Shown here piece by piece: positions 18,258 through 55,804 of a stretch of DNA of 64,000 nt. Every line of letters begins with the position of its first letter. The first letter of the stretch is position 1. Both the position numbers and the translations under genes were made by a program. This DNA comes from a virus. Under the pieces are notes generated by a model. It saw only the letters and a list, made by a program, of their open reading frames with translations. It made no database searches and was not told the origin of the DNA. The stretch is from the IMG/VR virus record IMGVR_UViG_3300013111_000325, positions 52,898 to 116,897 of that record; one strand, 5' to 3'.

Positions 18258-19115
18258 GTGAATTTGAAATTATCATTAGTTACTATTTTATTTTGTGGGT
18301 GGATGCTTGGAGCACCACCTGCATTTTCTGCTGATTTTGTCACCAAGGGTGACATAAGAAAATCAAGTGTGAAGTCGTTTAAGTCGTTTTTCACGGAAGA
18401 AAAATGCGATCAAATATTGATTGATACATTCACTATTTGTTATGATCATGAGAGAAAGTCACCAACTGCGGTTTATGTTGAGGTGACTGGACCTACTGTA
18501 ATTGAGGACATAGACAAACGCCCTCCATTCTTTACAGATAAGCGTGTAAAGAAAAACTACAGAACAACATCAAAAGACTATACGAACACAGGTTATGATA
18601 GAGGTCATTTTGGTGCATCAGATGCTTCACACGATTGGAATAAGAAGCATCAGAAAGCAACATATTCAATGGCTAACATCGTACCACAGACACCATTTGC
18701 TAATCGTTATAAGTTCATAGCATTAGAAAAGCATGAACGAGAGATGGCAGTCAAGTATGGTCGTTTAGAAAACGTCACAATTGCATTTTGGAACAACAGA
18801 CCCAAGAGAATTGGTAAGTCACAGTTGCAGGTACCAAGTGCATTTGCTAAACTTTATACTGATGGTAAAGGGTATAAAGAATGCTTCTTTATTTGGAATA
18901 ATGACGTATATGATAAATCAGACGGTCAAGATCCAAACAAATATAAACAAAATTGTGATAAAGTAACTGCAATGTGGGGCACACAAGTAGGTGAAGCAGA
19001 TAAGTGGTCACTGAAAGATAAAGATGCTCTCATTGATTTGCTTGACAAATATATAGAAAGTGAGAAAAATCAATCTAAAGTGGGTCTTGCAGAAGCACTC
19101 AAGAAAGCACTTTAG
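18258..19115 (+). CDS. DNA/RNA non-specific endonuclease (NucA/EndoG family) with signal peptide
   Basis: DY..TGYDRGH and MANIVPQ…N. Confidence 0.9.
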   Translation: MNLKLSLVTILFCGWMLGAPPAFSADFVTKGDIRKSSVKSFKSFFTEEKCDQILIDTFTICYDHERKSPTAVYVEVTGPTVIEDIDKRPPFFTDKRVKKNYRTTSKDYTNTGYDRGHFGASDASHDWNKKHQKATYSMANIVPQTPFANRYKFIALEKHEREMAVKYGRLENVTIAFWNNRPKRIGKSQLQVPSAFAKLYTDGKGYKECFFIWNNDVYDKSDGQDPNKYKQNCDKVTAMWGTQVGEADKWSLKDKDALIDLLDKYIESEKNQSKVGLAEALKKAL

Positions 19116-19140
19116 GCTAACTTGACATTTTAAAAAAGTA

Positions 19141-19485
19141 GTGTATAATATAGATATATCACAAAAAGCAAGTGAAGCAGTAAATGATGCAATCCAAGAA
19201 CATGAGCATCTACGTTTGAGTGCAAGACCTGGTGGATGCTCAGGTTGGAAGTGGAATTTACAGACAGAAGATACACTTGCACGAAACTCATTGGACGAAG
19301 TTTTTAGTACGAATTATGGATTTGAGATAGTGGTATCAAAATACTATCTAAATAATATTATAGGCTCAGCAACCATAGATTTTCAAAATGATAATTTAGT
19401 TGAACAAGGCTTTATAATCAAACGCAAATCAAGTCTTCATTCATGTGGTTGCGGAGAAAGTTTTACACCAATAAAAGATATGTAA
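19141..19485 (+). CDS. Fe-S cluster A-type carrier (IscA/HesB family); start uncertain
   Basis: GGCSG and CGCGESF. Confidence 0.85.
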   Translation: MYNIDISQKASEAVNDAIQEHEHLRLSARPGGCSGWKWNLQTEDTLARNSLDEVFSTNYGFEIVVSKYYLNNIIGSATIDFQNDNLVEQGFIIKRKSSLHSCGCGESFTPIKDM

Positions 19486-20959: not shown

Positions 20960-20967
20960 TATAAATA
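20960..20967 (+). promoter_or_regulatory. T4-type late promoter
   Basis: TATAAATA directly upstream of the ATG at 20973. Confidence 0.75.
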
Positions 20968-20972
20968 TAGTC

Positions 20973-21383
20973 ATGAAGACATTCAAGAGATTTTGCCGCC
21001 ATGACGTATTGTATATAAATGAAGACATAACAAAATCACAATTAGATCAAATAGAAGCCTATGCTGACCGTCTATTCAAGGCGGTCAACATAGATATAAA
21101 CTTCACTCGCCATTTTCTTGATAGGGTCAACGATGAACGTAACAAGAAACCTATCAACACCGCAGAATTAACCAGACTTTTCAAGCAAACATACAAGAAA
21201 CACGGTAAAAAGATTCCCAAGATGGGTGATGATGCTCAAGCAGTTATTCATGACATGCAGACAGACATCAATATGCCATTTGTTTTAGCGTATGATAATA
21301 GGAGACAAGAGATAGATTTGGTCGCTAAAACAATTATGCGTAAGAAAGACTTTAAGACATCAAATCAGAAGTTGACTGTATGA
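20973..21383 (+). CDS. probable capsid-internal protein
   Basis: MKTFKRF…INE N-terminus; FTRHFLDRVND.RN motif. Confidence 0.65.
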   Translation: MKTFKRFCRHDVLYINEDITKSQLDQIEAYADRLFKAVNIDINFTRHFLDRVNDERNKKPINTAELTRLFKQTYKKHGKKIPKMGDDAQAVIHDMQTDINMPFVLAYDNRRQEIDLVAKTIMRKKDFKTSNQKLTV

Positions 21384-21733
21384 AATCATTTAAAGTATTA
21401 AAACAGAACATAACTGAAGCCAGACAACGAATAGTTTATACGAGAGGAGAAACTCCCCAAGATGCTAAGAAAAAAGATAAAAGCCCTTATTATACTAAAA
21501 CAGTTAAAAATACAACAATAAGAGATTCCTGTCCAAAATGTGGAGGTTCAGGAGACCTTTTGCATTATCGGCATTATAAATCTGGTGAATGTTTTAAATG
21601 TAAAGGAAAAGGAACAGTTATAGTAAAAGCAAAGGAAATTGATTATAAATTTGATGAAAAGAAATGGAAAAAAGACAATCCAGATTATGATGAAAAAGGA
21701 CCTGATTGGTGGAAACAATTACTTATACATTAA
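21380..21733 (+). CDS. probable capsid-internal protein with DnaJ-type Zn finger
   Basis: MKSFKVLKQNITE; CPKCGGSG…CFKCKGKG. Confidence 0.65.
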   Translation: MKSFKVLKQNITEARQRIVYTRGETPQDAKKKDKSPYYTKTVKNTTIRDSCPKCGGSGDLLHYRHYKSGECFKCKGKGTVIVKAKEIDYKFDEKKWKKDNPDYDEKGPDWWKQLLIH

Positions 21734-21742
21734 GAGCATAAA

Positions 21743-22009
21743 ATGAAATCATTTAATAGAATAAAAACTTACAAAGATTTTCTTAAAGAATATGATGACA
21801 GGACTGATCGGTATGTGGCTGATGAAATCAAACGAAGGAAACTTGCAAGAATTACTGTCAATGCAACTGACGATAGAAAGATGATAAAAGGTAAGGCCGA
21901 CTTTACTATGGATCATCATACTGGAAGTTCAACTATTCACGTATATTTGAGAAAGATACCAGGGTCTACAAAAGGTGTGGTTGCTTACAATTACGAACTA
22001 AAATTGTGA
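21743..22009 (+). CDS. probable capsid-internal protein
   Basis: MKSFNRIKTYKDFLKE. Confidence 0.6.
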   Translation: MKSFNRIKTYKDFLKEYDDRTDRYVADEIKRRKLARITVNATDDRKMIKGKADFTMDHHTGSSTIHVYLRKIPGSTKGVVAYNYELKL

Positions 22010-22028
22010 TTAATGGTAAGAGATCAAA

Positions 22029-23492
22029 ATGAAATCATTTAAGTCTTATTTAGCAGAACGCAGAAGAGGTGGAGAAGAGAAGAATCCAAGGGTTTCTGCT
22101 ATTAAGGCACTAGAACCTTATAAGAATGATAAAGATGTTTTCATTACCTATACACAAATTGAAAAGGTAGGTGTCAATCCAGGATCCAGTTATAATACTC
22201 CAAACGGTATCTATACATATCCTCTCAAAGAAGCATGGGAAAAATATTATGTCCCAGGAAAAGGAACTCTTAATGTACCCTTTGCTGGTGATTCCAGTTG
22301 GGTAAATGCAATCAAGATAAAATCAGATGCAAAAGTTATTAGAGATATTGGAGTTTCTTATAGTTCAAAGGAATGGGATGAAGATGTTTTAAAACTAGCC
22401 AAGATTTTTATAGATCATCCTTTTTCCAAGAAAAATTGGGTCCCAATACTAACCATGTTGCAGGGTGTCAATCTGTATGACAAGGTAGAAAAAGATTTTG
22501 TCGGAGTGCGTAAAGATTGGTATTTTGAAAATAGAGAAAATGTAATTTGGAATCTATTTAAGGCTATTAAACAACATGCTATGTATTCCGCATATAGTCA
22601 GACAATCGGTGGACAGATGTGGAATTTGACAAGAGAACTTGCGACCATTATCAAATATACAGAAATGATTGAAATGGATGCTATTGATGGAAATTCAGGA
22701 ATGGACGAATTTGAAATTTCTATTCAAAGATTGGAAAAACCTTTAGATTTATCCGATCAAACAAGAATGTTTTGGTTTAGATTCCATTCTGGATTTAGAA
22801 AAACGGCACCAAATGTCTGGACAGATTTGTGGTTGAAGATGGGATATGGTGGAGTGATTGACCGTTCAGAGAATGGAATAATACACGAAGCAGAACCAAT
22901 ACAAGGTGTGTTCTTTACAACCAAGGCTTTTGATGTTTTGGGCAGGTTCATGAATAAAGGTTACGAGAGAGTGAATATGAAAGGTCTTTATATTTTGAGT
23001 GGTCTTCGTGTGGGTAAGGATGAACTTGTACACAAATTGAAGAATTTTTTACACAAAGATCAATACAAGTCCCTTTGTGCTATTATTATATTTCACAAAA
23101 TAAATCAAATATTGGCAAAGTTTTTAACAAGTATGGGTTCTTCAGGTGATGCTGATCAGATTAGTGCCCAGGCACCAAAATATGTTATTAAAAGGGCTAA
23201 TGATAAAAAGACATGGTTGAAAGTAGACCAATTTGATCCTTTTGTTCCAAATAGTACACGAACAGTAGTTGAATTTTTAGAAAACGAAATAAAAATCTAT
23301 CCTGATAATCATACTCCTTCAAATTCAGTAATGTTTAAATACGATAAAATAATTCCTCCTTTTGCACTAGAAAAAGATTTATCTTCAACTTTAAATAAAC
23401 AGTCTTATATAAAAATGGGAATGATGTTAGATAAATCGGTAACTACCTTATTGAGCAACATGATAGAAGATGTTTTAGGTATAAAAATATGA
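22029..23492 (+). CDS. probable capsid-internal protein, possible ADP-ribosyltransferase fold
   Basis: MKSFKSYLAE; TPNGIYTY and L..MGYGGVID….IIHEAEPIQGVFF. Confidence 0.5.
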   Translation: MKSFKSYLAERRRGGEEKNPRVSAIKALEPYKNDKDVFITYTQIEKVGVNPGSSYNTPNGIYTYPLKEAWEKYYVPGKGTLNVPFAGDSSWVNAIKIKSDAKVIRDIGVSYSSKEWDEDVLKLAKIFIDHPFSKKNWVPILTMLQGVNLYDKVEKDFVGVRKDWYFENRENVIWNLFKAIKQHAMYSAYSQTIGGQMWNLTRELATIIKYTEMIEMDAIDGNSGMDEFEISIQRLEKPLDLSDQTRMFWFRFHSGFRKTAPNVWTDLWLKMGYGGVIDRSENGIIHEAEPIQGVFFTTKAFDVLGRFMNKGYERVNMKGLYILSGLRVGKDELVHKLKNFLHKDQYKSLCAIIIFHKINQILAKFLTSMGSSGDADQISAQAPKYVIKRANDKKTWLKVDQFDPFVPNSTRTVVEFLENEIKIYPDNHTPSNSVMFKYDKIIPPFALEKDLSSTLNKQSYIKMGMMLDKSVTTLLSNMIEDVLGIKI

Positions 23493-25126
23493 TCAAATTT
23501 TCATCTTTTCTAACAGAGACCGCACAAAAAATTAACACAGTTCTATCTCCTGCATTAAGATCCGAAATAAAACAGAGAAATGGTAAAGTATATCAGATTG
23601 GTGGTGCAGTTCGTGATGAACTAATCGGTAAAATATCCAAAGATTTAGATTTACTTGTAACAGGCATAGAAACAGATGAATTGCAGGATATATTAAGCAA
23701 TCATGGCAAAGTGGATGCGGTTGGTAAATCATTCGGTATTCTAAAATTTCAACCAAAAGGGCAGACAGGCGAACCTCTTGATATATCAGTTCCCAGAGTT
23801 GATGTTCAAAGTACAGGAGGCGGCCATAAAGATTTTGAAGTAAAACTTGGTAAAGATATTTCTCTTGAACAAGATCAGTTACGCAGAGACTTCTGGATGA
23901 ATGCTATCGCCAAAGATATTGAAACTGGTGAGATGCATGATATTGAAGGTAAAGGGCAGTTTGATATAGAAAATAAGCAGATTAGCGTGATTAATCCTCA
24001 AGCATTTGATGATGATCCTTTGAGAATGTTGAGAGCAATTCAATTTGCTTCTCGTTTTGGTTTCAGCATAGAACCTGAAACTATGAAAGAGATCAAAAAG
24101 AATGCTGACAAAATTTCAACGATATCAGCAGAGAGATTTCAAGAAGAATTTCGTAAAATGTTTGAAAAATCTGATAATCCGAGTGTTGGTGTTCAATTGC
24201 TATTTGACACAGGTATTGCAAAACTTGTTATACCAAAACTCAAAGAAGTTGATAATTCTGTTGATAAGTTAGATAAAAAAGCATTCCCAGCGTTTCTTGC
24301 AATACTATTTAAAAATTATATGCATAATGCAGGTGAAATGGCCCAGAAAATATTTAAATTGTCTAATGCTGACAGAGTATCAGTTCAGTCTGTTATTGAT
24401 ATGGATAAAAATCTGAAAAATTTAAAAGATCCGATATTTATCGTTAGATTTATGCGAAATAAATCGGAGCAAGAAATAATGAATGTTGATGAATATCTGA
24501 AAACAAAAGGTACAAGAACTATATCAGATTTTGTTAATGAGATGAGAAGACGAAGAATACCCACAAATCTTAAAGAATTAGGTGTAAATGGTCGTGATAT
24601 GATGCGAGAAGGATTTAAAGGTGTTATGATCGGTGATGCTCTACAATGGATGCTTGAATTTGCAGTAAGAACAGGTAAGGCTGAAAAAGGTCTTTTAGTT
24701 CGTAAAGCAAAAGAACATTTTGGTATTAAAGAAACATTCTTTTATGAAGATGTGCAGGGATTTTATGCTTTGACCATAGATCCTAGATCAAAACTGGATA
24801 TTCAACAATATGCAAGTCATGAAATTGTTGTATCGGATCATGTTACTGTTGCATATAAACCAAGCGATCAAGTAGGTGAAATATTGAATTCTATGTTGGG
24901 CAGAACTTATAACATACAAGCACATACCTATATAAGTAATGATAGAATAGATGCGGCAATCGTAGATATACAGGGATTAAAAAGTGATAGAATTGCACAT
25001 ATTACAATATCTCACATAAAAGGCGCAATTCCTGCCGAATCTAATGATTTGATACAAAATTCGCAACATAAAGAAAAAATGAATATGAAATTAAGAGGAG
25101 TGCTAAATTTTTATGCACACACCTAA
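23489..25126 (+). CDS. cca: CCA-adding tRNA nucleotidyltransferase (class II) fused to a C-terminal 2H phosphoesterase
   Basis: GGAVRD, DLDL, RRDFWMNA, DDPLRMLRAIQFASR and ERFQEE; C-terminal HVTV and HITI. Confidence 0.85.
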   Translation: MIKFSSFLTETAQKINTVLSPALRSEIKQRNGKVYQIGGAVRDELIGKISKDLDLLVTGIETDELQDILSNHGKVDAVGKSFGILKFQPKGQTGEPLDISVPRVDVQSTGGGHKDFEVKLGKDISLEQDQLRRDFWMNAIAKDIETGEMHDIEGKGQFDIENKQISVINPQAFDDDPLRMLRAIQFASRFGFSIEPETMKEIKKNADKISTISAERFQEEFRKMFEKSDNPSVGVQLLFDTGIAKLVIPKLKEVDNSVDKLDKKAFPAFLAILFKNYMHNAGEMAQKIFKLSNADRVSVQSVIDMDKNLKNLKDPIFIVRFMRNKSEQEIMNVDEYLKTKGTRTISDFVNEMRRRRIPTNLKELGVNGRDMMREGFKGVMIGDALQWMLEFAVRTGKAEKGLLVRKAKEHFGIKETFFYEDVQGFYALTIDPRSKLDIQQYASHEIVVSDHVTVAYKPSDQVGEILNSMLGRTYNIQAHTYISNDRIDAAIVDIQGLKSDRIAHITISHIKGAIPAESNDLIQNSQHKEKMNMKLRGVLNFYAHT

Positions 25127-28296: not shown

Positions 28297-28325
28297 GGTG
28301 GGTGCTTGCGCCCACCTCCTTTTTA
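28297..28325 (+). terminator. intrinsic terminator
   Basis: GGTGGGTG-CTTG-CGCCCACC followed by a T-run. Confidence 0.65.
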
Positions 28326-28599
28326 TTCTATCAGGGAGAATATGCCAGTAGATTTCAAGGTATTAGAGAGATTAATTAATAGACACGAAGAAGTATTTGC
28401 AGAACAGTTACAACCATTAAAGCCCATTAGATGGGGAGATAATTACGAACCTCGACCAAAAAACCCACGCAAACGCAAAAATAAACTACCTAAGGTAGAG
28501 AAAGAGTATTTTAATGACAGAAGAATGGCTATGACCCCCAATACTTGACATTTGCGTTTTATTTGATATAATAAATATAAACATCAAAAGACTATTTTT

Positions 28600-31008: not shown

Positions 31009-32059
31009 AAAACAAACATTAGAGAGTTATAATGGCAATGTAAAAGAAATATCAGATAGAGCAATAATTGTCGGTTGTCATTGTGACACAGACTACAAAA
31101 TGAAATTAACAACCGAATTATTGATTAGGATAAGAGGTAAATTTAAAGATGGTATATTTCTTGTAGTGGCATCTCATTTACCAGTAACTGAAGAAATTCA
31201 AGAATTGTGTGATTATTTTGTATACAATAAAAATAATCCAGTTATAAATCTTGACATTACAACTCCTATTACAGTAAAGAGTGAAATGTTAAATGAGTTG
31301 TGGAGAGCAAATGGTGTTCTTGAACGAGTCAAGACGTTGAGAAAAAACCATTCATATGCCCATCATTTGCTTATAAGAGATGCTTTTCATATTTGCATGA
31401 GCAATAACGTATCCTTTGTACATTATATGAATTATGATTCACCTGAAAAATGTTTATCAGAAATTGATTGGCATCTTACAAAATTAGATGTATATGATGG
31501 TGTATTTTATGATTATCATCATAAACAATATTATAATACAGAATTCTTCTCTATGACTACAAGGGCGTATGATAAGTTTCTGTCACATATTATATCATAT
31601 GAGCAGTGGGAATCTTATGAAACTTTTGATACAGAGGTTAATTATAGTAAATTTTTGAAAACTGCTAATATATTTTGTGAAGACATTTTTGAGCCAGATG
31701 TGTCCGACATAATCGGCAGTGTGAGTTTCGGTAGTGAAGTCAATAGTAAAGGAACTCCTGACATACTTAAAAATATTGTGGGTAATTTCACTGTAATTCC
31801 TTATGAGAGGGATGGTAAAATAGTAATCAACAATTCCTATACAGGTTATAATGATCCAAAACACGAGAAACACATCAAATGGGAGTCTTTTGATAAAGAC
31901 ATGAAACAAATAAATTTTCTCGATGCAGTTGTATCCAAAAATAATTGGGTTGATTATATTTGCCCTGAGAATTGTAAATATGTCAAAATATACATAGATT
32001 TAGAATTAAAATCTTTTTTCGACATCACAAATAAAAAAAATATAGGTCAAATTGTCTAA
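30992..32059 (+). CDS. paralog 3 of the tandem triplet
   Basis: VGCHC, SHLP, NHSYAHH, HYMNYD and TEFFS. Confidence 0.55.
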   Translation: MVGYSRKQTLESYNGNVKEISDRAIIVGCHCDTDYKMKLTTELLIRIRGKFKDGIFLVVASHLPVTEEIQELCDYFVYNKNNPVINLDITTPITVKSEMLNELWRANGVLERVKTLRKNHSYAHHLLIRDAFHICMSNNVSFVHYMNYDSPEKCLSEIDWHLTKLDVYDGVFYDYHHKQYYNTEFFSMTTRAYDKFLSHIISYEQWESYETFDTEVNYSKFLKTANIFCEDIFEPDVSDIIGSVSFGSEVNSKGTPDILKNIVGNFTVIPYERDGKIVINNSYTGYNDPKHEKHIKWESFDKDMKQINFLDAVVSKNNWVDYICPENCKYVKIYIDLELKSFFDITNKKNIGQIV

Positions 32060-32293
32060 AATAATAGAACTTTCATTTGATATTGAAAATGATGAATTGA
32101 TAGCCACAGACGGTGAATTTGAGGGTAGATTTAACGTTTTTCAATTACGTGAGGTACGTGAATTGTTCCAACGTTATGATGAAGCGAATTTTAATCATGA
32201 TGAAGATGAAGAGTTGAATGCTTTTCACAATTTTGCCGATAGAATGGCACAAAACTCTCCTGAAGCATTAGAGGTAATATCACCATATCTTAA

Positions 32294-33043
32294 TTGATGA
32301 AACTCTTAATAACGGGTGTCAAAGGATTTATAGGATATCATTTCTATAATCTAATGGCACACGACTCCACCTACAATCCAAGAAAAATATATGGTATAGA
32401 CAATTGTTCAGGATTAGCATGTGATGAACGTGATGTCCCATACACCTATGGTGATCTTATGGGTTGTGAATTACCTGAAGATGTGACACATGTTATACAT
32501 TTAGCAGGCCGTACCAGTGTAAGAGCCAGTTGGGTGCCAGAGAATATAAGACAATTTTATAGAGACAATTTTCTCGTAAGTGAGAGATTATTTGATTTCT
32601 ATAAAGACAAACCTGTAAAAATATTATATGCTACAAGTTCGTCTGTACTTGAGATGAAAAGCCCATATGCTATGACAAAGAAACTGGTTGAGCATATTGC
32701 ACCACCCAATGCTATTGGTATGAGATTCTTTACAGTATTTGGTGAGAAGGGAAGACCTGATATGCTTTATCGTATGGCACTAGAAGGTAATGTTCGCCAT
32801 ATGACTACAAATAAGAGAGATTTCACTCCAGTAGAACATGTTGTAAGATGCATTAGAACTTTACTCAATAAAGGCAACATGGGAGAGTTTTATGAGATTG
32901 GCACAGGTGAATCAAGAACACCCAAAGAATTTTTACAGAGACAGTCAATTAAAGTTCCACAAGTAGCATATATCAGAAAATTTGATGAGAGTCTAAATAC
33001 TTGTGCTAACGTATCAAAGATGGAGGCTTTGTTAAAGCAATGA
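32294..33043 (+). CDS. NAD-dependent sugar epimerase/dehydratase
   Basis: ITGVKGFIG, HLAG, YAMTK and RFFTVFG..GRPDM. Confidence 0.88.
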   Translation: MMKLLITGVKGFIGYHFYNLMAHDSTYNPRKIYGIDNCSGLACDERDVPYTYGDLMGCELPEDVTHVIHLAGRTSVRASWVPENIRQFYRDNFLVSERLFDFYKDKPVKILYATSSSVLEMKSPYAMTKKLVEHIAPPNAIGMRFFTVFGEKGRPDMLYRMALEGNVRHMTTNKRDFTPVEHVVRCIRTLLNKGNMGEFYEIGTGESRTPKEFLQRQSIKVPQVAYIRKFDESLNTCANVSKMEALLKQ

Positions 33044-39707: not shown

Positions 39708-40062
39708 GGCGTTTGCTGATAGTTCTACATACTTTAATGTAGGTGACAGTTCAATCATTGGTTCCTTTGAGAATAAAGAAACTGGTAAATTCTTTGAGTA
39801 TTCTGAAGGTAAAGAAGAGGATTGGGGAACCTATGCTGATTATGGGCTGAGGAATGAGTATGTTCATCGAGTTTGGGTAACTACTCCTTGGAAAATGGAT
39901 AGAGGTTTTCGTATGGCAAAGGTTCTGAAAACTGTTGCCTATATTCTTCTTGATGAAGATGACTACGGAGAGCCTGTGATAGAGAAATGGAAAATCAAAA
40001 AACATAAAGTCTACGATAGAGAGAAGAAACACTACTGGTCAGACTATGATTTAACTTCCTAA
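39708..40062 (+). CDS. early hypothetical protein
   Basis: ORF downstream of an early promoter; GGAG RBS; start approximate. Confidence 0.55.
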
Positions 40063-40080
40063 AAAACTTTAAAAAAATAC

Positions 40081-40120
40081 TTGACATTCCTTTAGAATTT
40101 GCTATACTAATAATGTGAGT
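40081..40120 (+). promoter_or_regulatory. repeated early promoter (near-identical to the 39432 copy)
   Basis: TTGACATTCCTTTAGAATTTGCTATACTAATAATGTGAGT. Confidence 0.85.
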
Positions 40121-40705
40121 GAGAGAGAGAAGAGAAATTCTCCTCTGTCAATGAAGACAGTGAACCTCTCATCGGTTAGCCTTCTGTAAACGAGCCCATG
40201 CTAAGGACTATTTCCTGTTTGGGTCTGAGGGGTTACTGAGAAAATCATAATGAGACAATACGAGATATGTGATTAAGAGATGGTCACGGCCCATATTGGG
40301 TAGCAGTGACACGCACATATCTCGTATTCCTCAAGAAAGGCTGATGTCTCTCTGAGGCCCTAAAGTGGTCTAGACGAAATATCAGAGAGACGGCCGAACA
40401 CCTCTATTAGGAATTGCTCAATGAGTATTGTTGACCAACTGACAATAGAGAGTTGTGGGACTGCTCTCCCCTAGTCACCTACAAAGGTTCGTAATGATGC
40501 GAGGTAGACGGCTGATGTGACGGGGAACGACAAATAAGAACACATGTGCATAAGACACATGGCAGGTTCAGTATGCACCTGTGTCCCAAGAAAATACGAA
40601 AGGTAGCCGAAGAAAAAAGCGGTAAGAGTTTTTCGCAAAGGTTCTCTGAAACAAAACCTATGCAGACTGAGCGGTGGCAGTCTTGGTGGGCCACCGTTGT
40701 TCTTT
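40115..40705 (+). ncRNA. candidate large structured non-coding RNA
   Basis: Strong promoter, no credible ORF and GC content higher than the flanks. Long stems: AATACGAGATATGTG/CACATATCTCGTATT, GTCTCTCTGA/TCAGAGAGAC, CATGTG/CACATG. It ends in the GCGGTGGC/GCCACCGT hairpin plus a U-run. Confidence 0.6.
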
Positions 40706-40745
40706 TTCTCTTGACTTTTGTTGTGTTATATGACACAATGAAACT

Positions 40746-40902
40746 GAAGATAAGAGAGGACATGATAACCCTCTTGACCTCTTCCTCGTGCTAACGATTG
40801 GCAGTTAGCGGTTGAAAGAGACTTATCACCTCTGACAACAACGAGTAAAGACACGCAACAGTGTCAAGACCCCAGGTCGGTTCGACTCCGGTCCTGGGGA
40901 TT
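40746..40902 (+). ncRNA. candidate structured RNA ending in a T-loop hairpin
   Basis: Nested stems and the terminal CCCCAGG-TCGG-TTCGACT-CCGG-T-CCTGGGG. Confidence 0.5.
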
Positions 40903-40921
40903 GCTATATGTACTGACATGC

Positions 40922-40959
40922 TTGACAATTGAAAAAACCATGCTATAATATATAAATAA
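40922..40959 (+). promoter_or_regulatory. early promoter with adjacent late promoter
   Basis: TTGACA-16-TATAAT followed by TATAAATA. Confidence 0.7.
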
Positions 40960-41619
40960 TATTTGAATAAGGATAAGTCCAGAAGCACAAGCACGGACGG
41001 GAAGGGGTGGGCATACAGTCTGAGGATGCACCTGTATATTCTCTGCACGATCTTGGTGCATCCTCTGCACACTCTCTGAATAGGGGGTGGGGGGCAATAT
41101 GTTTTCGGCAAGATACTTGGGGTGTGCATAGATATACAACGAGGTTGCTATAACGGTCGAATTGAAAATTTTTTTTGGAGTAAATTGTGAAGAAGAAAAA
41201 AACATTTACAAATATCGAATTCCAAGTTCAAACCAAATACGGTTGGAAAACACTAAAAACAGAAACAGACATGCCTGATCTAGAGGTGATGGAACAATTA
41301 GAGAAGTATGAAGAAACGTATTCTGATAAAAGAGTAAGAATACATGCAGAAGGAAATAAAAAAGTTTTTGAGGATTATAATTTTTACATAGTACGCAAAG
41401 ATCCTAATATGTCTTCTAAGAAAATTCCTACTGATTTCAAGCGTTTGTCAAGTTTTCCTCTGAGTGTGGAGTCAAAACTTTTAAAGACCACACAGGATGC
41501 AGGAAAAAATATTAAAGTTGTTGATGTAGATAATAATGTTTTAAGTGAAATAAATTTGGATAAAGATCGTGTAATTACGAATACAATATAAGTTACGCAA
41601 ATTTTTTTTTGGAGTATAA

Positions 41620-54226: not shown

Positions 54227-54309
54227 GGGGAGGCTGGGCATAGGTGAGCCCAACAGGCTGTAAACCTGCCGTATATACTGTGGCGGTTCGACTCCGTCTC
54301 TCCCCACCA
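54227..54309 (+). tRNA. tRNA-Tyr (GTA)
   Basis: GGGGAGG/TCTCCCC acceptor, CAGG-CTGTAAA-CCTG, GGTTCGACTCC and encoded CCA. Confidence 0.88.
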
Positions 54310-54311
54310 TG

Positions 54312-54389
54312 GGTCCCATCGTTCAGTCAGGTCTAGGACACGGCACTGTCACTGCCGAGACACGAGTTCAAATCTCGTTGGGACCGCCA
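54312..54389 (+). tRNA. tRNA-Asp (GTC)
   Basis: GGTCCCA/TGGGACC, CGGCA-CTGTCAC-TGCCG, GTTCAAATC and CCA. Confidence 0.92.
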
Positions 54390-55028
54390 ACAAAGTGATT
54401 ATGGATACTGAAGATTTGAAAGAAGAAAGACAAATGAGCAAGGCAGGAAGTCTTGCAATGGAATTGTCAAAAGAAAAAAAGCGGCTTCAAGAAGAACTTG
54501 AAGAAATGCAACAACAGTTTGAGGAGGTTTCTCCAAGTACACCAACGGGAGGACCAGATTCCTATTTCAAATGGATTGGAGTTGTATCAGCCGTCATAGG
54601 AATATTTTTACAGAATTCAAACTTACCTTTATTTGGACAATTTTTTTATGTGATTGGAGCATATTCTTGGACGGCAGTAGGATTTTATTGGAACGATAAA
54701 GCAGTTATGTTAGGAAGTGTTATTCCTGCTACAGTAGTGGCAATGAATTTAACTAAAGAACTGGTAAAGATTTTATAAGTATAACAGAACATTTATAAAG
54801 AAACTACTATGAAAAAAATGACAAAACACACATTAAAAGAACTAAAAAGATCATCTGTTAAGGTGGGGTTATTAATTTTAGTTCTACCATTTGGAATTAG
54901 TGCTTCTTTTAATTTCCTCCCACTTTGGTTGTCATTACCGATTGGGTTTATATTGGGTTTATCAGAGTTAATATTAATAGCAACCTTTGTGTTTATAGAG
55001 GTGGAGTTGCTGTATACAAAGGAAAAAA

Positions 55029-55199
55029 ATGAGTAGGGTCAGTTGTGGTGGAGAATGTCTTACTAATTTAGACCATAACTGTGTAGGTTGTGACAGAACA
55101 CCAACAGAAGAAGCGATGTGGGAACTTTATACATCAGAAGAGAGAGAGGAAATTGTAAAGGAGATACAGTCTTTTCTGGAAGAACAAAATGAAAATTAA
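55029..55199 (+). CDS. DUF1289-like small Cys protein (not in ORF track)
   Basis: C…C…CVGCDRT..E..MW. Confidence 0.6.
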   Translation: MSRVSCGGECLTNLDHNCVGCDRTPTEEAMWELYTSEEREEIVKEIQSFLEEQNEN

Positions 55200-55652
55200 T
55201 CACTTATAAAATTAAAAGGGATCAATAAAAAATGTCACCTACGTATAATTACCGATGCAATTATTGTAAGAAAGAGTGGGAAGAAGAAGTTCCTAATGAA
55301 GAACAAAAACTGCATCCAACACAAGTTTTGCAACCAGTTGAGTGTGACATTTTTGTTGCACCACATGCTGGTGTTGCAAAATGTGATGTGGAACTTGTTC
55401 TTAAAAAAACAAAATAAATACATGATTAAAGGATATTATGAAAAACATATTTAAATTTATGGGAGTATCAATACTCGGTACGTTTGGTTTATATTTAATT
55501 CAACCCTATGCACCTTTGGTTGTGGGTGTGGCCTGTTTGTTTTTTGCTTGGCAATTGTTTGTGTCCGCTCTTCCTGAGATTGAAGATTGGCGATATACAA
55601 TTCTTAAAGCAGAAGTAGAAAGCCTTAAAAGGTGGGTATACAAATTCTAAAC

Positions 55653-55727
55653 AGGTCATTGGTGTTAATGGTAGCATGTCGGACTCCAAATCCGAAGGTA
55701 CGGGTTCAAATCCTGTATGACCTGCCA
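55653..55727 (+). tRNA. tRNA-Trp (CCA)
   Basis: AGGTCAT/ATGACCT, TCGGA-CTCCAAA-TCCGA, GGTTCAAATCC and CCA. Confidence 0.93.
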
Positions 55728-55729
55728 AT

Positions 55730-55804
55730 GTGACCGTGACTGAATGGTGAGGTAACAGATTGCAAATCTGATTAATGCAGGTTCAAATCCTGTCGGTCAC
55801 TCCA
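55730..55804 (+). tRNA. tRNA-Cys (GCA)
   Basis: GTGACCG/CGGTCAC, CAGA-TTGCAAA-TCTG, GGTTCAAATCC, U discriminator and CCA. Confidence 0.92.

What the first reader, a model, noticed from the sequence alone, without database searches (positions are those of the whole stretch)
23489..25126. CCA-adding enzyme fused to a 2H phosphoesterase, with a capsid-targeting leader: candidate virion-delivered tRNA 3'-end repair
Seen: a complete class II CCA/poly(A) nucleotidyltransferase core with no recognisable HD domain, followed by a ~120-aa domain carrying two HxT motifs (DHVTV, AHITI). All four tRNAs in the window already encode CCA. Established: 2H enzymes open 2',3'-cyclic phosphates, and several toxin or defence systems damage tRNA ends. 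Inference: the fusion heals and re-tails damaged tRNA 3' ends as a counter-defence rather than maturing phage tRNAs.
Basis: partly seen in the sequence, partly recalled or inferred. Interest (0 to 1): 0.8.

Follow-up and report, generated by a model that had tools for sequence, protein, structure and literature searches.

The report
Capsid-tagged phage CCA enzyme fused to 2H
A marine T4-like phage joins a tRNA CCA-tail-adding enzyme to a miniature two-histidine phosphoesterase and starts it with a tag like the one phage T4 uses to load proteins into its head, so it may be an injected tRNA-tail repair enzyme, though neither activity nor packaging has been measured.

Summary
ORF 23489-25126 (+, 545 aa) is a Bacillus-type class II CCA/poly(A) nucleotidyltransferase with no HD domain, followed by a ~125-aa domain (residues 412-545).

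That domain is a real 2H phosphoesterase. Both HxT motifs are invariant in 60 relatives. 45 of 60 relatives hit the fungal tRNA-ligase CPD family. The AlphaFold model (pLDDT 93.5) matches CNPase and Trl1-CPD first.

The CCA-2H link recurs in three arrangements. This 2H type is fused, or is a separate gene just upstream. A second, unrelated 2H type is fused or lies just downstream. Together, 12 of 16 loci have one of these.

The leader MIKFSSFLTE resembles T4 IPII/IPIII MKTYQEFIAE and ends in the FLTE found at the capsid protein's T4-aligned maturation site. It heads at least five unrelated genes in this record. 115 of the 120 best homologues carry a lineage-typical tag. The record encodes a gp21-type protease.

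Virion delivery, tRNA substrate, CCA specificity and counter-defence role are all inferred. No enzyme is identified to remove the phosphate that a 2H enzyme would leave.

This scan has flagged the same theme on other DNA. I found no paper describing it.

Verdict: a new variant of the known CCA addition/repair enzyme.

The parts
23489..25126 (+). Whole gene: 545-aa tagged CCA-type nucleotidyltransferase fused to a 2H phosphoesterase
23489..23518 (+). 10-residue N-terminal leader MIKFSSFLTE (T4 CTS-like, Glu-ended). Proposed cleavage after Glu10.
   Evidence: T4 ipII/ipIII leaders. FLTE aligned with the T4 gp23 FLTE|A site. M1, F4 and E10 invariant in 9 orthologues. Motif statistics.
23585..24688 (+). 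Class II nucleotidyltransferase head, neck and body/tail (residues about 33-400). GGAVRD, DLD, RRD and DDPLR motifs read in the sequence.
   Evidence: (NF009814 aligned 25-390 to 14-372 of 396)
24722..25123 (+). Miniature 2H phosphoesterase domain (residues 412-545), CNPase/Trl1-CPD-like
24839..24847 (+). First HxT motif (His451-Val-Thr453)
   Evidence: invariant H40, T42
24998..25006 (+). Second HxT motif (His504-Ile-Thr506)
   Evidence: invariant H93, T95. Aligned to the HITI of Trl1 CPD.
20973..23492 (+). Four upstream genes (20973-21383, 21380-21733, 21743-22009, 22029-23492) with the same kind of leader: MKTFKRF...INE, MKSFKVL...ITE, MKSFNRI...LKE, MKSFKSYLAE
18369..19115 (+). Tagged (MKSFKSFFTE, GTG start) DNA/RNA non-specific endonuclease
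   Evidence: PF01223, 5.6e-30
20960..20967 (+). TATAAATA (T4 late-promoter-like) 5 nt before the first tagged gene. Weak evidence only.
   Evidence: (7 found, 8.9 expected)
54227..55804 (+). Four tRNA genes (Tyr, Asp, Trp, Cys), each with encoded CCA

Best explanation
The gene encodes a two-enzyme tRNA 3'-end repair protein.

The C-terminal mini-2H domain opens a 2',3'-cyclic phosphate left on a clipped tRNA acceptor end. The N-terminal Bacillus-type class II nucleotidyltransferase then rebuilds the CCA tail. This is the same logic as the E. coli Cca protein, with the HD domain replaced by a 2H domain.

The precursor starts with a 10-residue tag, MIKFSSFLTE, of the kind T4 uses to load internal proteins into the prohead core. 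The phage's gp21-type protease probably clips it after Glu10. The mature enzyme would then travel in the head and enter the next cell with the DNA, alongside other tagged cargo (non-specific nuclease, SAM lyase and others).

Shown: domain identities, conserved catalytic motifs, the 2H fold, the recurrent CCA-2H linkage, the tag's likeness to the T4 CTS and its spread over unrelated genes, and the presence of protease and scaffold.

Inferred: tRNA as substrate, CCA specificity, cleavage, packaging, injection and a counter-defence role.
For: Nucleotidyltransferase:
- Pfam head and neck domains are well above cut-off.
- phrog_2244 tRNA nucleotidyltransferase at 1.5e-59.
- CCA models outrank PcnB (137 and 128 bits against 92), and the Firmicute CCA model aligns end to end.
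- The best solved relatives are CCA-adding enzymes.
- Orthologue P0006 passes the PF13735 cut-off (27.7 against 27).

2H domain:
- 99 relatives at E <= 1e-3.
- H/T of both motifs invariant in 60 of 60.
- 45 of 60 hit PF08302, best 3.6e-12.
- The family profile hits Trl1 kinase-CPD structures at E 0.003, then CNPases.
- Model pLDDT 93.5. All 30 Foldseek matches at E <= 1e-3 that are listed are 2H enzymes: CNPase with TM 0.59-0.67, Trl1 6u05, RICH.

Linkage, over the window plus 15 related loci:
- This 2H type is fused in 2 loci and is a separate gene just upstream of the CCA gene in 5.
- A second 2H type is fused in 4 and lies just downstream in 1.
- That is 12 of 16. Two of the other 4 are cut at the relevant end.
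- The second type also folds as 2H: the top 30 Foldseek rows are all 2H enzymes, best E 4.4e-3.
- One locus has the order 2H, HAD phosphatase, CCA.
- Other partners of this 2H type include HAD_SAK_1, the 'Swiss Army Knife RNA repair' HAD.

Tag:
- T4 ipII/ipIII begin MKTYQEFIAE and ipI begins MKTFKEF...ITE.
- One regular expression picks exactly ipII and ipIII among 799 candidate starts in 45 kb of T4. In this record it picks 5 gene starts on the coding strand (2,006 candidates) and 0 on the other strand (744 candidates). About 0.36 hits are expected by chance.
- Serine and other codons in the tag vary, so the peptide is what is conserved.
- 115 of the 120 best homologues carry a lineage-typical tag: 101 T4-like and 14 MxWxxILK.
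- The capsid protein's NFLTE|AGFG aligns with T4 gp23 SFLTE|AEIGG.
- The protease is phrog_207 at 2.5e-78 and keeps the GELxHP and GVSSRGxGS blocks.
- Tagged neighbours are unrelated enzymes: Endonuclease_NS, S-AdoMet lyase, DUF6267.

All 5 tRNAs of the record encode CCA.
Against: - There is no virion, cleavage, expression-timing or enzyme data.
- NCBIfam equivalog cut-offs for CCA enzymes are not reached. CCA and poly(A) enzymes cannot be told apart by sequence here.
- PF08302 scores 21.8 bits for this protein, below the cut-off of 23.
- CNPase/Trl1-type 2H enzymes leave a 2'-phosphate (recalled). No Tpt1, PNK-type phosphatase or RNA ligase was found in the record, which is only 52% complete.
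- TATAAATA is not enriched in the window (7 found, 8.9 expected).
- Perfect sigma-70-type promoters lie upstream (19122-19149) and no terminator follows until 28297, so early transcription is possible.
- Very many genes carry tags in relatives: 11 of 12 consecutive genes in L017, and 10 of 15 in L015 with a different tag. The tag could therefore have another role.
- Iyer et al. 2017 proposed that phage 2H domains not linked to ligases act as RNases or degrade signalling nucleotides.
Confidence: 0.5

Rival explanations
1. Same chemistry, ordinary setting. The enzyme works only in the cytoplasm of the producing cell and keeps host and phage tRNA tails intact against end turnover by exonucleases and spontaneous cleavage while host functions decay. 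The shared N-terminus serves something other than packaging, such as translation start efficiency, regulation, or a recombination cassette boundary.
For: CCA enzymes are common in large phages with no packaging claim (465 phage records; review passage). Sigma-70-like promoters upstream would allow early expression. The late-promoter motif is not enriched. Tags sit on a very large share of genes in some relatives.
Against: The tag is conserved as a peptide, not as DNA. It ends in an invariant Glu preceded by L/I/V/F two residues earlier, including in the longer variants. It shares FLTE with the aligned capsid maturation site. The same expression picks only the known CTS proteins in T4. Cellular CCA enzymes lack this N-terminal extension (alignment start).
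Confidence: 0.27
2. The 2H domain is not an RNA-end healer. It is either a signal-destroying enzyme (Acb1-like, cyclic oligonucleotides or 2'-5' oligoadenylate) or a Usb1-like 3' trimming RNase. The fusion simply combines two independent counter-defence activities.
For: Phage phosphodiesterase 9q2y and Acb1 appear among the fold matches. The second 2H type matches Usb1 best. Iyer et al. 2017 proposed exactly these roles for phage 2H domains not linked to ligases. One relative is fused to ART-PolyVal.
Against: Sequence affinity is to the tRNA-ligase CPD family, not Acb1. Two unrelated 2H types each pair with the same CCA family, fused or adjacent. HAD phosphatase partners of RNA-repair type also occur.
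Confidence: 0.12
3. The transferase is a poly(A) polymerase or other RNA-tailing enzyme that marks host RNAs for decay, and not a CCA adder.
For: The class II head is shared with PcnB. TIGR01942 pcnB scores 92 bits, and several poly(A) polymerase structures match at 1e-13 to 1e-15.
Against: CCA models score higher and align over the full length, including the tail region. PF13735, the tRNA nucleotidyltransferase domain 2, passes its cut-off in orthologue P0006. PHROG assignment is tRNA nucleotidyltransferase.
Confidence: 0.07

Closest known systems
E. coli multifunctional CCA addition/repair protein (Cca: class II nucleotidyltransferase plus HD domain)
   Same: One polypeptide joins CCA addition to removal of a 2',3'-cyclic phosphate from tRNA ends. 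The role of the HD domain is stated in a passage of PMC6961547 citing Yakunin et al. 2004. The NCBIfam model name appears.
   Different: There is no HD domain. The phosphoesterase is an unrelated metal-independent 2H fold. The body is Bacillus-type (NF009814). It carries an N-terminal phage tag.
CPD domain of fungal/plant tRNA ligase Trl1 and vertebrate CNPase (2H superfamily)
   Same: Two HxT motifs, the same fold, and the best sequence and structure matches.
   Different: About 125 residues against about 210-250. HxT spacing is 53 residues. It is not joined to a kinase or ligase. The family is annotated only as viral hypothetical proteins and has no tblastn match in 50,697 phage records.
T4 internal proteins IPI, IPII, IPIII (and Alt) with the capsid targeting sequence, processed by gp21
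   Same: A 10-residue Glu-ended leader of the same pattern. T4-type protease, scaffold and capsid protein are present. Diverse cargo share only the tag, as Rao and Black describe for T4 (passage).
   Different: The cargo here is a 60-kDa RNA enzyme. Packaging and cleavage have not been observed. There are many more tagged genes than in T4.
Phage polyvalent proteins and solo phage 2H domains (Iyer et al. 2017, PMC5512222)
   Same: 2H domains predicted to be delivered in the virion (section 20 read).
   Different: There is no MuF or portal fusion. 'CCA' does not occur in that paper's main text (0 occurrences). Here the 2H is tied to a tRNA enzyme.
T4 Pnkp/Rnl1 tRNA repair
   Same: A phage-encoded heal-then-restore answer to tRNA damage (recalled; also the passage).
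   Different: That pathway seals anticodon-loop nicks with a ligase. No ligase or kinase was found here. The target here would be the 3' tail.

Membership tests
Class II CCA-adding tRNA nucleotidyltransferase | Pol-beta head with GGxVRD and DxD (motif A), RRD (motif B) and (E/D)DxxR (motif D) | tested here: met
   PF01743 at 63.6 bits (cut-off 23). GGAVRD, DLD, RRD and DDPLR read in the sequence and aligned to 1miv.
Class II CCA-adding tRNA nucleotidyltransferase | Neck and body/tail that hold the tRNA | tested here: inconclusive
   PF12627 at 61.7 bits is met. PF13735 at 16.1 bits is below its cut-off of 27 in this protein, but reaches 27.7 in orthologue P0006.
Class II CCA-adding tRNA nucleotidyltransferase | Curated equivalog score | tested here: not met
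   TIGR02692 scores 137.4 against 438.8, NF009814 scores 128.5 against 290, and NF008137 scores 117.2 against 451. This is a divergent phage clade.
Class II CCA-adding tRNA nucleotidyltransferase | Adds C, C, A to tRNA and not poly(A) | not testable with these tools
   Needs an enzyme assay.
2H phosphoesterase superfamily | Two H-x-T/S motifs | tested here: met
   H451/T453 and H504/T506. Invariant in 60 of 60 relatives. By my reading, all but 7 of 98 relatives show both motifs; the 7 are fragments or repeat proteins.
2H phosphoesterase superfamily | 2H fold with each motif on a strand of the cleft | tested here: met
Pfam PF08302 tRNA_lig_CPD | Gathering score of 23 bits | tested here: not met
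   21.8 bits, E 1.5e-4, covering only the second half of the profile. 45 of 60 relatives match at E <= 0.01. This is a related mini-family and not a member.
E. coli-type multifunctional Cca | C-terminal HD phosphohydrolase domain | tested here: not met
   No HD family at E <= 1. NF008137 aligns only to residues 33-252.
T4-type capsid-targeted internal proteins | N-terminal leader of the CTS pattern ending in (L/I)-x-Glu | tested here: met
T4-type capsid-targeted internal proteins | gp21-type prohead protease and scaffolding core in the same genome | tested here: met
   phrog_207 at 2.5e-78 and phrog_237 at 1.8e-76. Alignment to gp21. Conserved FLTE|A site in the capsid protein.
T4-type capsid-targeted internal proteins | Protein present in virions, leader removed | not testable with these tools
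   No proteome of this or a close phage was found.

The most novel reading that the evidence does not exclude
Marine T4-like phages, and in parallel a second virus lineage with its own MxWxDILK tag, load ready-made tRNA-tail repair enzymes into the capsid. These are a 2H cyclic phosphodiesterase, a CCA-adding enzyme and sometimes a HAD phosphatase. They would be injected with the genome to undo immunity that clips or blocks the universal tRNA 3' end before any phage gene is expressed. This would be the 'yet unknown means of resistance' that the Cas12a3 tRNA-tail paper calls for. It would be one item in a large, swappable set of tagged enzyme cargo.
Probability: 0.35. Interest if true: 0.85.

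Novelty: new variant of a known kind. Interest (0 to 1): 0.7.

Why it matters
tRNA inactivation is a growing theme in antiphage immunity. The 2026 Cas12a3 paper states that cleavage of the universal CCA tail cannot be escaped with phage tRNAs, and that viruses would need other, unknown means (Discussion passage).

A phage enzyme that heals and rebuilds tRNA 3' ends is a concrete, testable candidate, especially if it arrives pre-made with the DNA.

The finding also extends the T4 capsid targeting sequence from a few small T-even internal proteins to a large family of enzyme cargo in abundant marine phages. It defines an unannotated mini-2H family. It shows convergent replacement of the HD domain of Cca by two different 2H domains.

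My searches found no paper on a CCA-2H fusion or a packaged CCA enzyme. Burroughs and Aravind 2016 was not held and may bear on this. Supplements were not consulted.

Tried and rejected
- Complex prediction of the phage protease with the first 40 residues of the CCA protein gave no verdict. It is not used as evidence either way.
As its message advised going on with other tools, I obtained gene contexts with the search for related loci.
- Megablast of 20 kb of the window against phages found no match.
- tblastn of the 2H domain against 50,697 phage records found no match.
- hhalign of the two 2H types gave probability 1.4%. I treat them as separate families joined only at fold level.
- TATAAATA as a late-promoter signal is not enriched and is kept only as a weak note.
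- The own-record searches for Tpt1, Rnl2-type ligase, PNK3P and phrog_415 were negative. AAA_33 gave only 16 bits. The record is 52% complete, so absence is not shown.
- PF27444, listed for P0006-P0010, is in neither Pfam copy. Its meaning is unknown.
- The pelagimyophage paper PMC7029224 has no occurrence of nucleotidyltransferase, CCA, internal protein or N-terminal in its main text.
It has only an Atlas lead.
Full report
**What is there.** The window is the last 64 kb of a single 116,897-bp virus record, rated 52% complete. Nearly all genes are on the + strand. ORF 23489-25126 (+) encodes 545 residues, and its ATG overlaps the stop of the upstream gene.

Residues about 33-400 are a class II nucleotidyltransferase:
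- PF01743 scores 63.6 bits and PF12627 scores 61.7 bits, both far above cut-off.
- phrog_2244 'tRNA nucleotidyltransferase' scores 1.5e-59.
- The best solved relatives are CCA-adding enzymes 9ns4 and 1miv.
- NCBIfam CCA models outrank PcnB (137 and 128 bits against 92). The Firmicute model aligns over 25-390. No equivalog cut-off is reached.
- No HD domain is detected.

CCA specificity remains an inference.

**The C-terminal domain.** Residues 412-545 carry HVT at 451-453 and HIT at 504-506.
- An exhaustive search with this piece found 99 relatives at E <= 1e-3. Most are stand-alone proteins of 120-150 residues.
- In an alignment of 60, the only invariant columns are the His and Thr of both motifs.
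- 45 of the 60 match Pfam PF08302, the fungal tRNA-ligase cyclic phosphodiesterase domain (best 3.6e-12). This protein itself scores 21.8 bits, just under the cut-off of 23.
- The family profile finds Trl1 kinase-CPD structures (E 0.003) and then CNPases.
- The AlphaFold model is confident (pLDDT 93.5). Its Foldseek matches are CNPase (TM by query 0.59-0.67), Trl1, RICH and a phage phosphodiesterase.

It is about half the size of canonical 2H domains. The nearest Atlas clusters are viral 'hypothetical proteins'. It has no tblastn match in 50,697 deposited phage records.

**The link between CCA enzyme and 2H is not an accident of one contig.**

Among the 120 best homologues of the whole protein:

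| Architecture | Count |
|---|---|
| This 2H type fused | 8 |
| A different C-terminal domain with HVTL...HVSI fused | 19 |
| No extra domain | 93 |

The second domain has no profile similarity to the first (hhalign 1.4%). It also models as 2H: pLDDT is 87, and the first 30 Foldseek rows are all 2H enzymes (Usb1, LigT, Acb1, ns2, plant CPDase). None of those rows is below E 1e-3.

In the window plus 15 viral contigs:

| Arrangement | Loci |
|---|---|
| Type 1 fused | 2 |
| Type 1 as a separate gene just upstream of the CCA gene | 5 |
| Type 2 fused | 4 |
| Type 2 as the next gene downstream | 1 |
| No 2H found | 4 |

Two of the last four loci are cut at the relevant end. In L015 the gene between the 2H and CCA genes is a PNK-like HAD phosphatase. 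Other fusion partners of type 1 include the HAD of 'Swiss Army Knife RNA repair proteins' and ART-PolyVal. Three independent arrangements argue for a shared pathway at RNA 3' ends.

**The leader.** The record has a T4-type head module: protease phrog_207, scaffold phrog_237 and capsid protein phrog_138. The capsid protein is closest to Pelagibacter phage HTVC008M, at 61%.

From the T4 record, IPII and IPIII begin MKTYQEFIAE and IPI begins MKTFKEFTSTTTPVSTITE. The CCA protein begins MIKFSSFLTE.

- A single regular expression for this pattern picks exactly ipII and ipIII among 799 candidate starts in 45 kb of T4.
- In this record it picks five true gene starts among 2,006 candidate starts on the coding strand, and none among 744 on the other strand. 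About 0.36 hits are expected by chance.
- Longer Glu-ended variants head four more genes.
- Codons in the tag vary (Ser as TCG, TCA, AGT, TCT, AGC), so the peptide is what is conserved.
- M1, F4 and E10 are invariant in nine orthologues.
- 101 of the 120 homologues carry a T4-like tag and 14 carry another lineage's tag.
- The capsid protein's NFLTE|AGFG aligns with T4 gp23 SFLTE|AEIGG. That this is the gp21 cut site in T4 is recalled, not from a call; the record says only that gp23 is cleaved by gp21.
- The protease keeps the conserved His and Ser blocks.

Tagged genes are unrelated to one another: a non-specific endonuclease, an S-AdoMet lyase, DUF6267, a zinc-ribbon protein and unknowns. This fits the T4 picture of diverse cargo sharing only a targeting sequence (passage).

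**Mechanism and its gaps.** The most likely reading is a heal-and-retail enzyme for tRNA 3' ends. It would be analogous to E. coli Cca, whose HD domain removes 2',3'-cyclic phosphates (passage), with a 2H domain in the HD's place, and probably delivered in the capsid.

All five tRNAs of the record encode CCA, so de novo maturation is not the evident need.

Weak points:
- Nothing shows packaging or cleavage.
- Expression timing is open. TATAAATA is not enriched, and perfect sigma-70-type promoters lie upstream.
- CNPase-type enzymes leave a 2'-phosphate (recalled), and no phosphatase for it was found in this half-complete record.
- RuvC-type tail cleavage such as Cas12a3's would not need a 2H step. 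That is my inference from the enzyme class. The paper's main text does not mention cyclic phosphate.
- Tags are so frequent in some relatives that another role for them cannot be excluded.
- Iyer et al. proposed RNase or signal-degrading roles for phage 2H domains.

**Comparison and novelty.** It works like Cca but fails membership of the HD-type family. It is a divergent member of the class II CCA/poly(A) superfamily. Its 2H domain is a mini relative of Trl1-CPD and CNPase, not a member of PF08302 by score.

My searches found no paper on a CCA-2H fusion or a packaged CCA enzyme. One search returned 2 papers, neither describing it, and the passages were read. One search returned 0 and one search returned 3. 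Burroughs and Aravind 2016 was not held.

The scan itself has noted the same theme before on other DNA: 28 notes in at least 24 genomes. These include the type-2 fusion (e1-5704876) and a 2H-HAD-CCA kit in a virus its agent called magrovirus-type (e1-6106600). I treat these as leads. I re-derived the type-2 fold and the L015 arrangement independently here.

**Verdict.** This is a new variant of a known kind, of good interest because it offers a testable viral answer to tRNA-tail-directed immunity.

Noticed in passing
window 20973-23492 and 18369-19115; G000 31934-32500 (L002:11934-12500); G000 40035-41273 (L003:35-1273); G000 896-1297: At least nine genes of this record start with the T4 CTS-like tag. 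They include a DNA/RNA non-specific endonuclease (GTG start), an S-AdoMet lyase family protein (a known anti-restriction activity), DUF6267, a zinc-ribbon protein, and a gp68-position core protein next to the protease.
   Followed up: partly
window 22029-23492: A 487-aa tagged protein just upstream. It has no Pfam or PHROG hit. The Atlas gives leads to viral clusters with ART-PolyVal on 23-29% of members and to RES/ART-like folds at low TM. The ADP-ribosyltransferase idea stays a lead only.
   Followed up: partly
L011-L015 (IMG/VR contigs): A second virus lineage puts a different 8-residue tag, M-[ST]-W-x-D-I-L-K, on many genes (10 of 15 in L015), including its CCA enzyme, 2H protein and a HAD phosphatase. 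These sit next to terminase and portal genes. I did not test that.
   Followed up: partly
L017:1535-3235: Here the CCA ORF runs on in frame into a second full tag (MLSFIQYITE) followed by a 151-aa domain with no Pfam hit. This looks like two tagged cargo genes fused, with a retained internal cut site.
   Followed up: partly
L006, L008, L009, L016, L018, L023-L038: A second, unrelated 2H domain (HVTL...HVSI, LigT/Usb1-like by fold) is fused to, or follows, the same CCA family. When it is a separate gene it has its own tag (MRTFEEYNEE in L016).
   Followed up: yes
window 19122-19149, 28545-28572, 28297-28316: Two perfect sigma-70 consensus promoters (TTGACA, 16 nt, TATAAT) and a strong intrinsic terminator bracket the region that holds the tagged run and the membrane-protein genes.
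   Followed up: no
P0006-P0010: The precomputed Pfam family PF27444 is listed on five close homologues but is absent from both local Pfam copies. What it is remains unknown.
   Followed up: partly
L002:1357-1432 (G000 about 21357-21432): A fifth tRNA (Gly-GCC) lies outside the window and also has an encoded CCA.
   Followed up: yes
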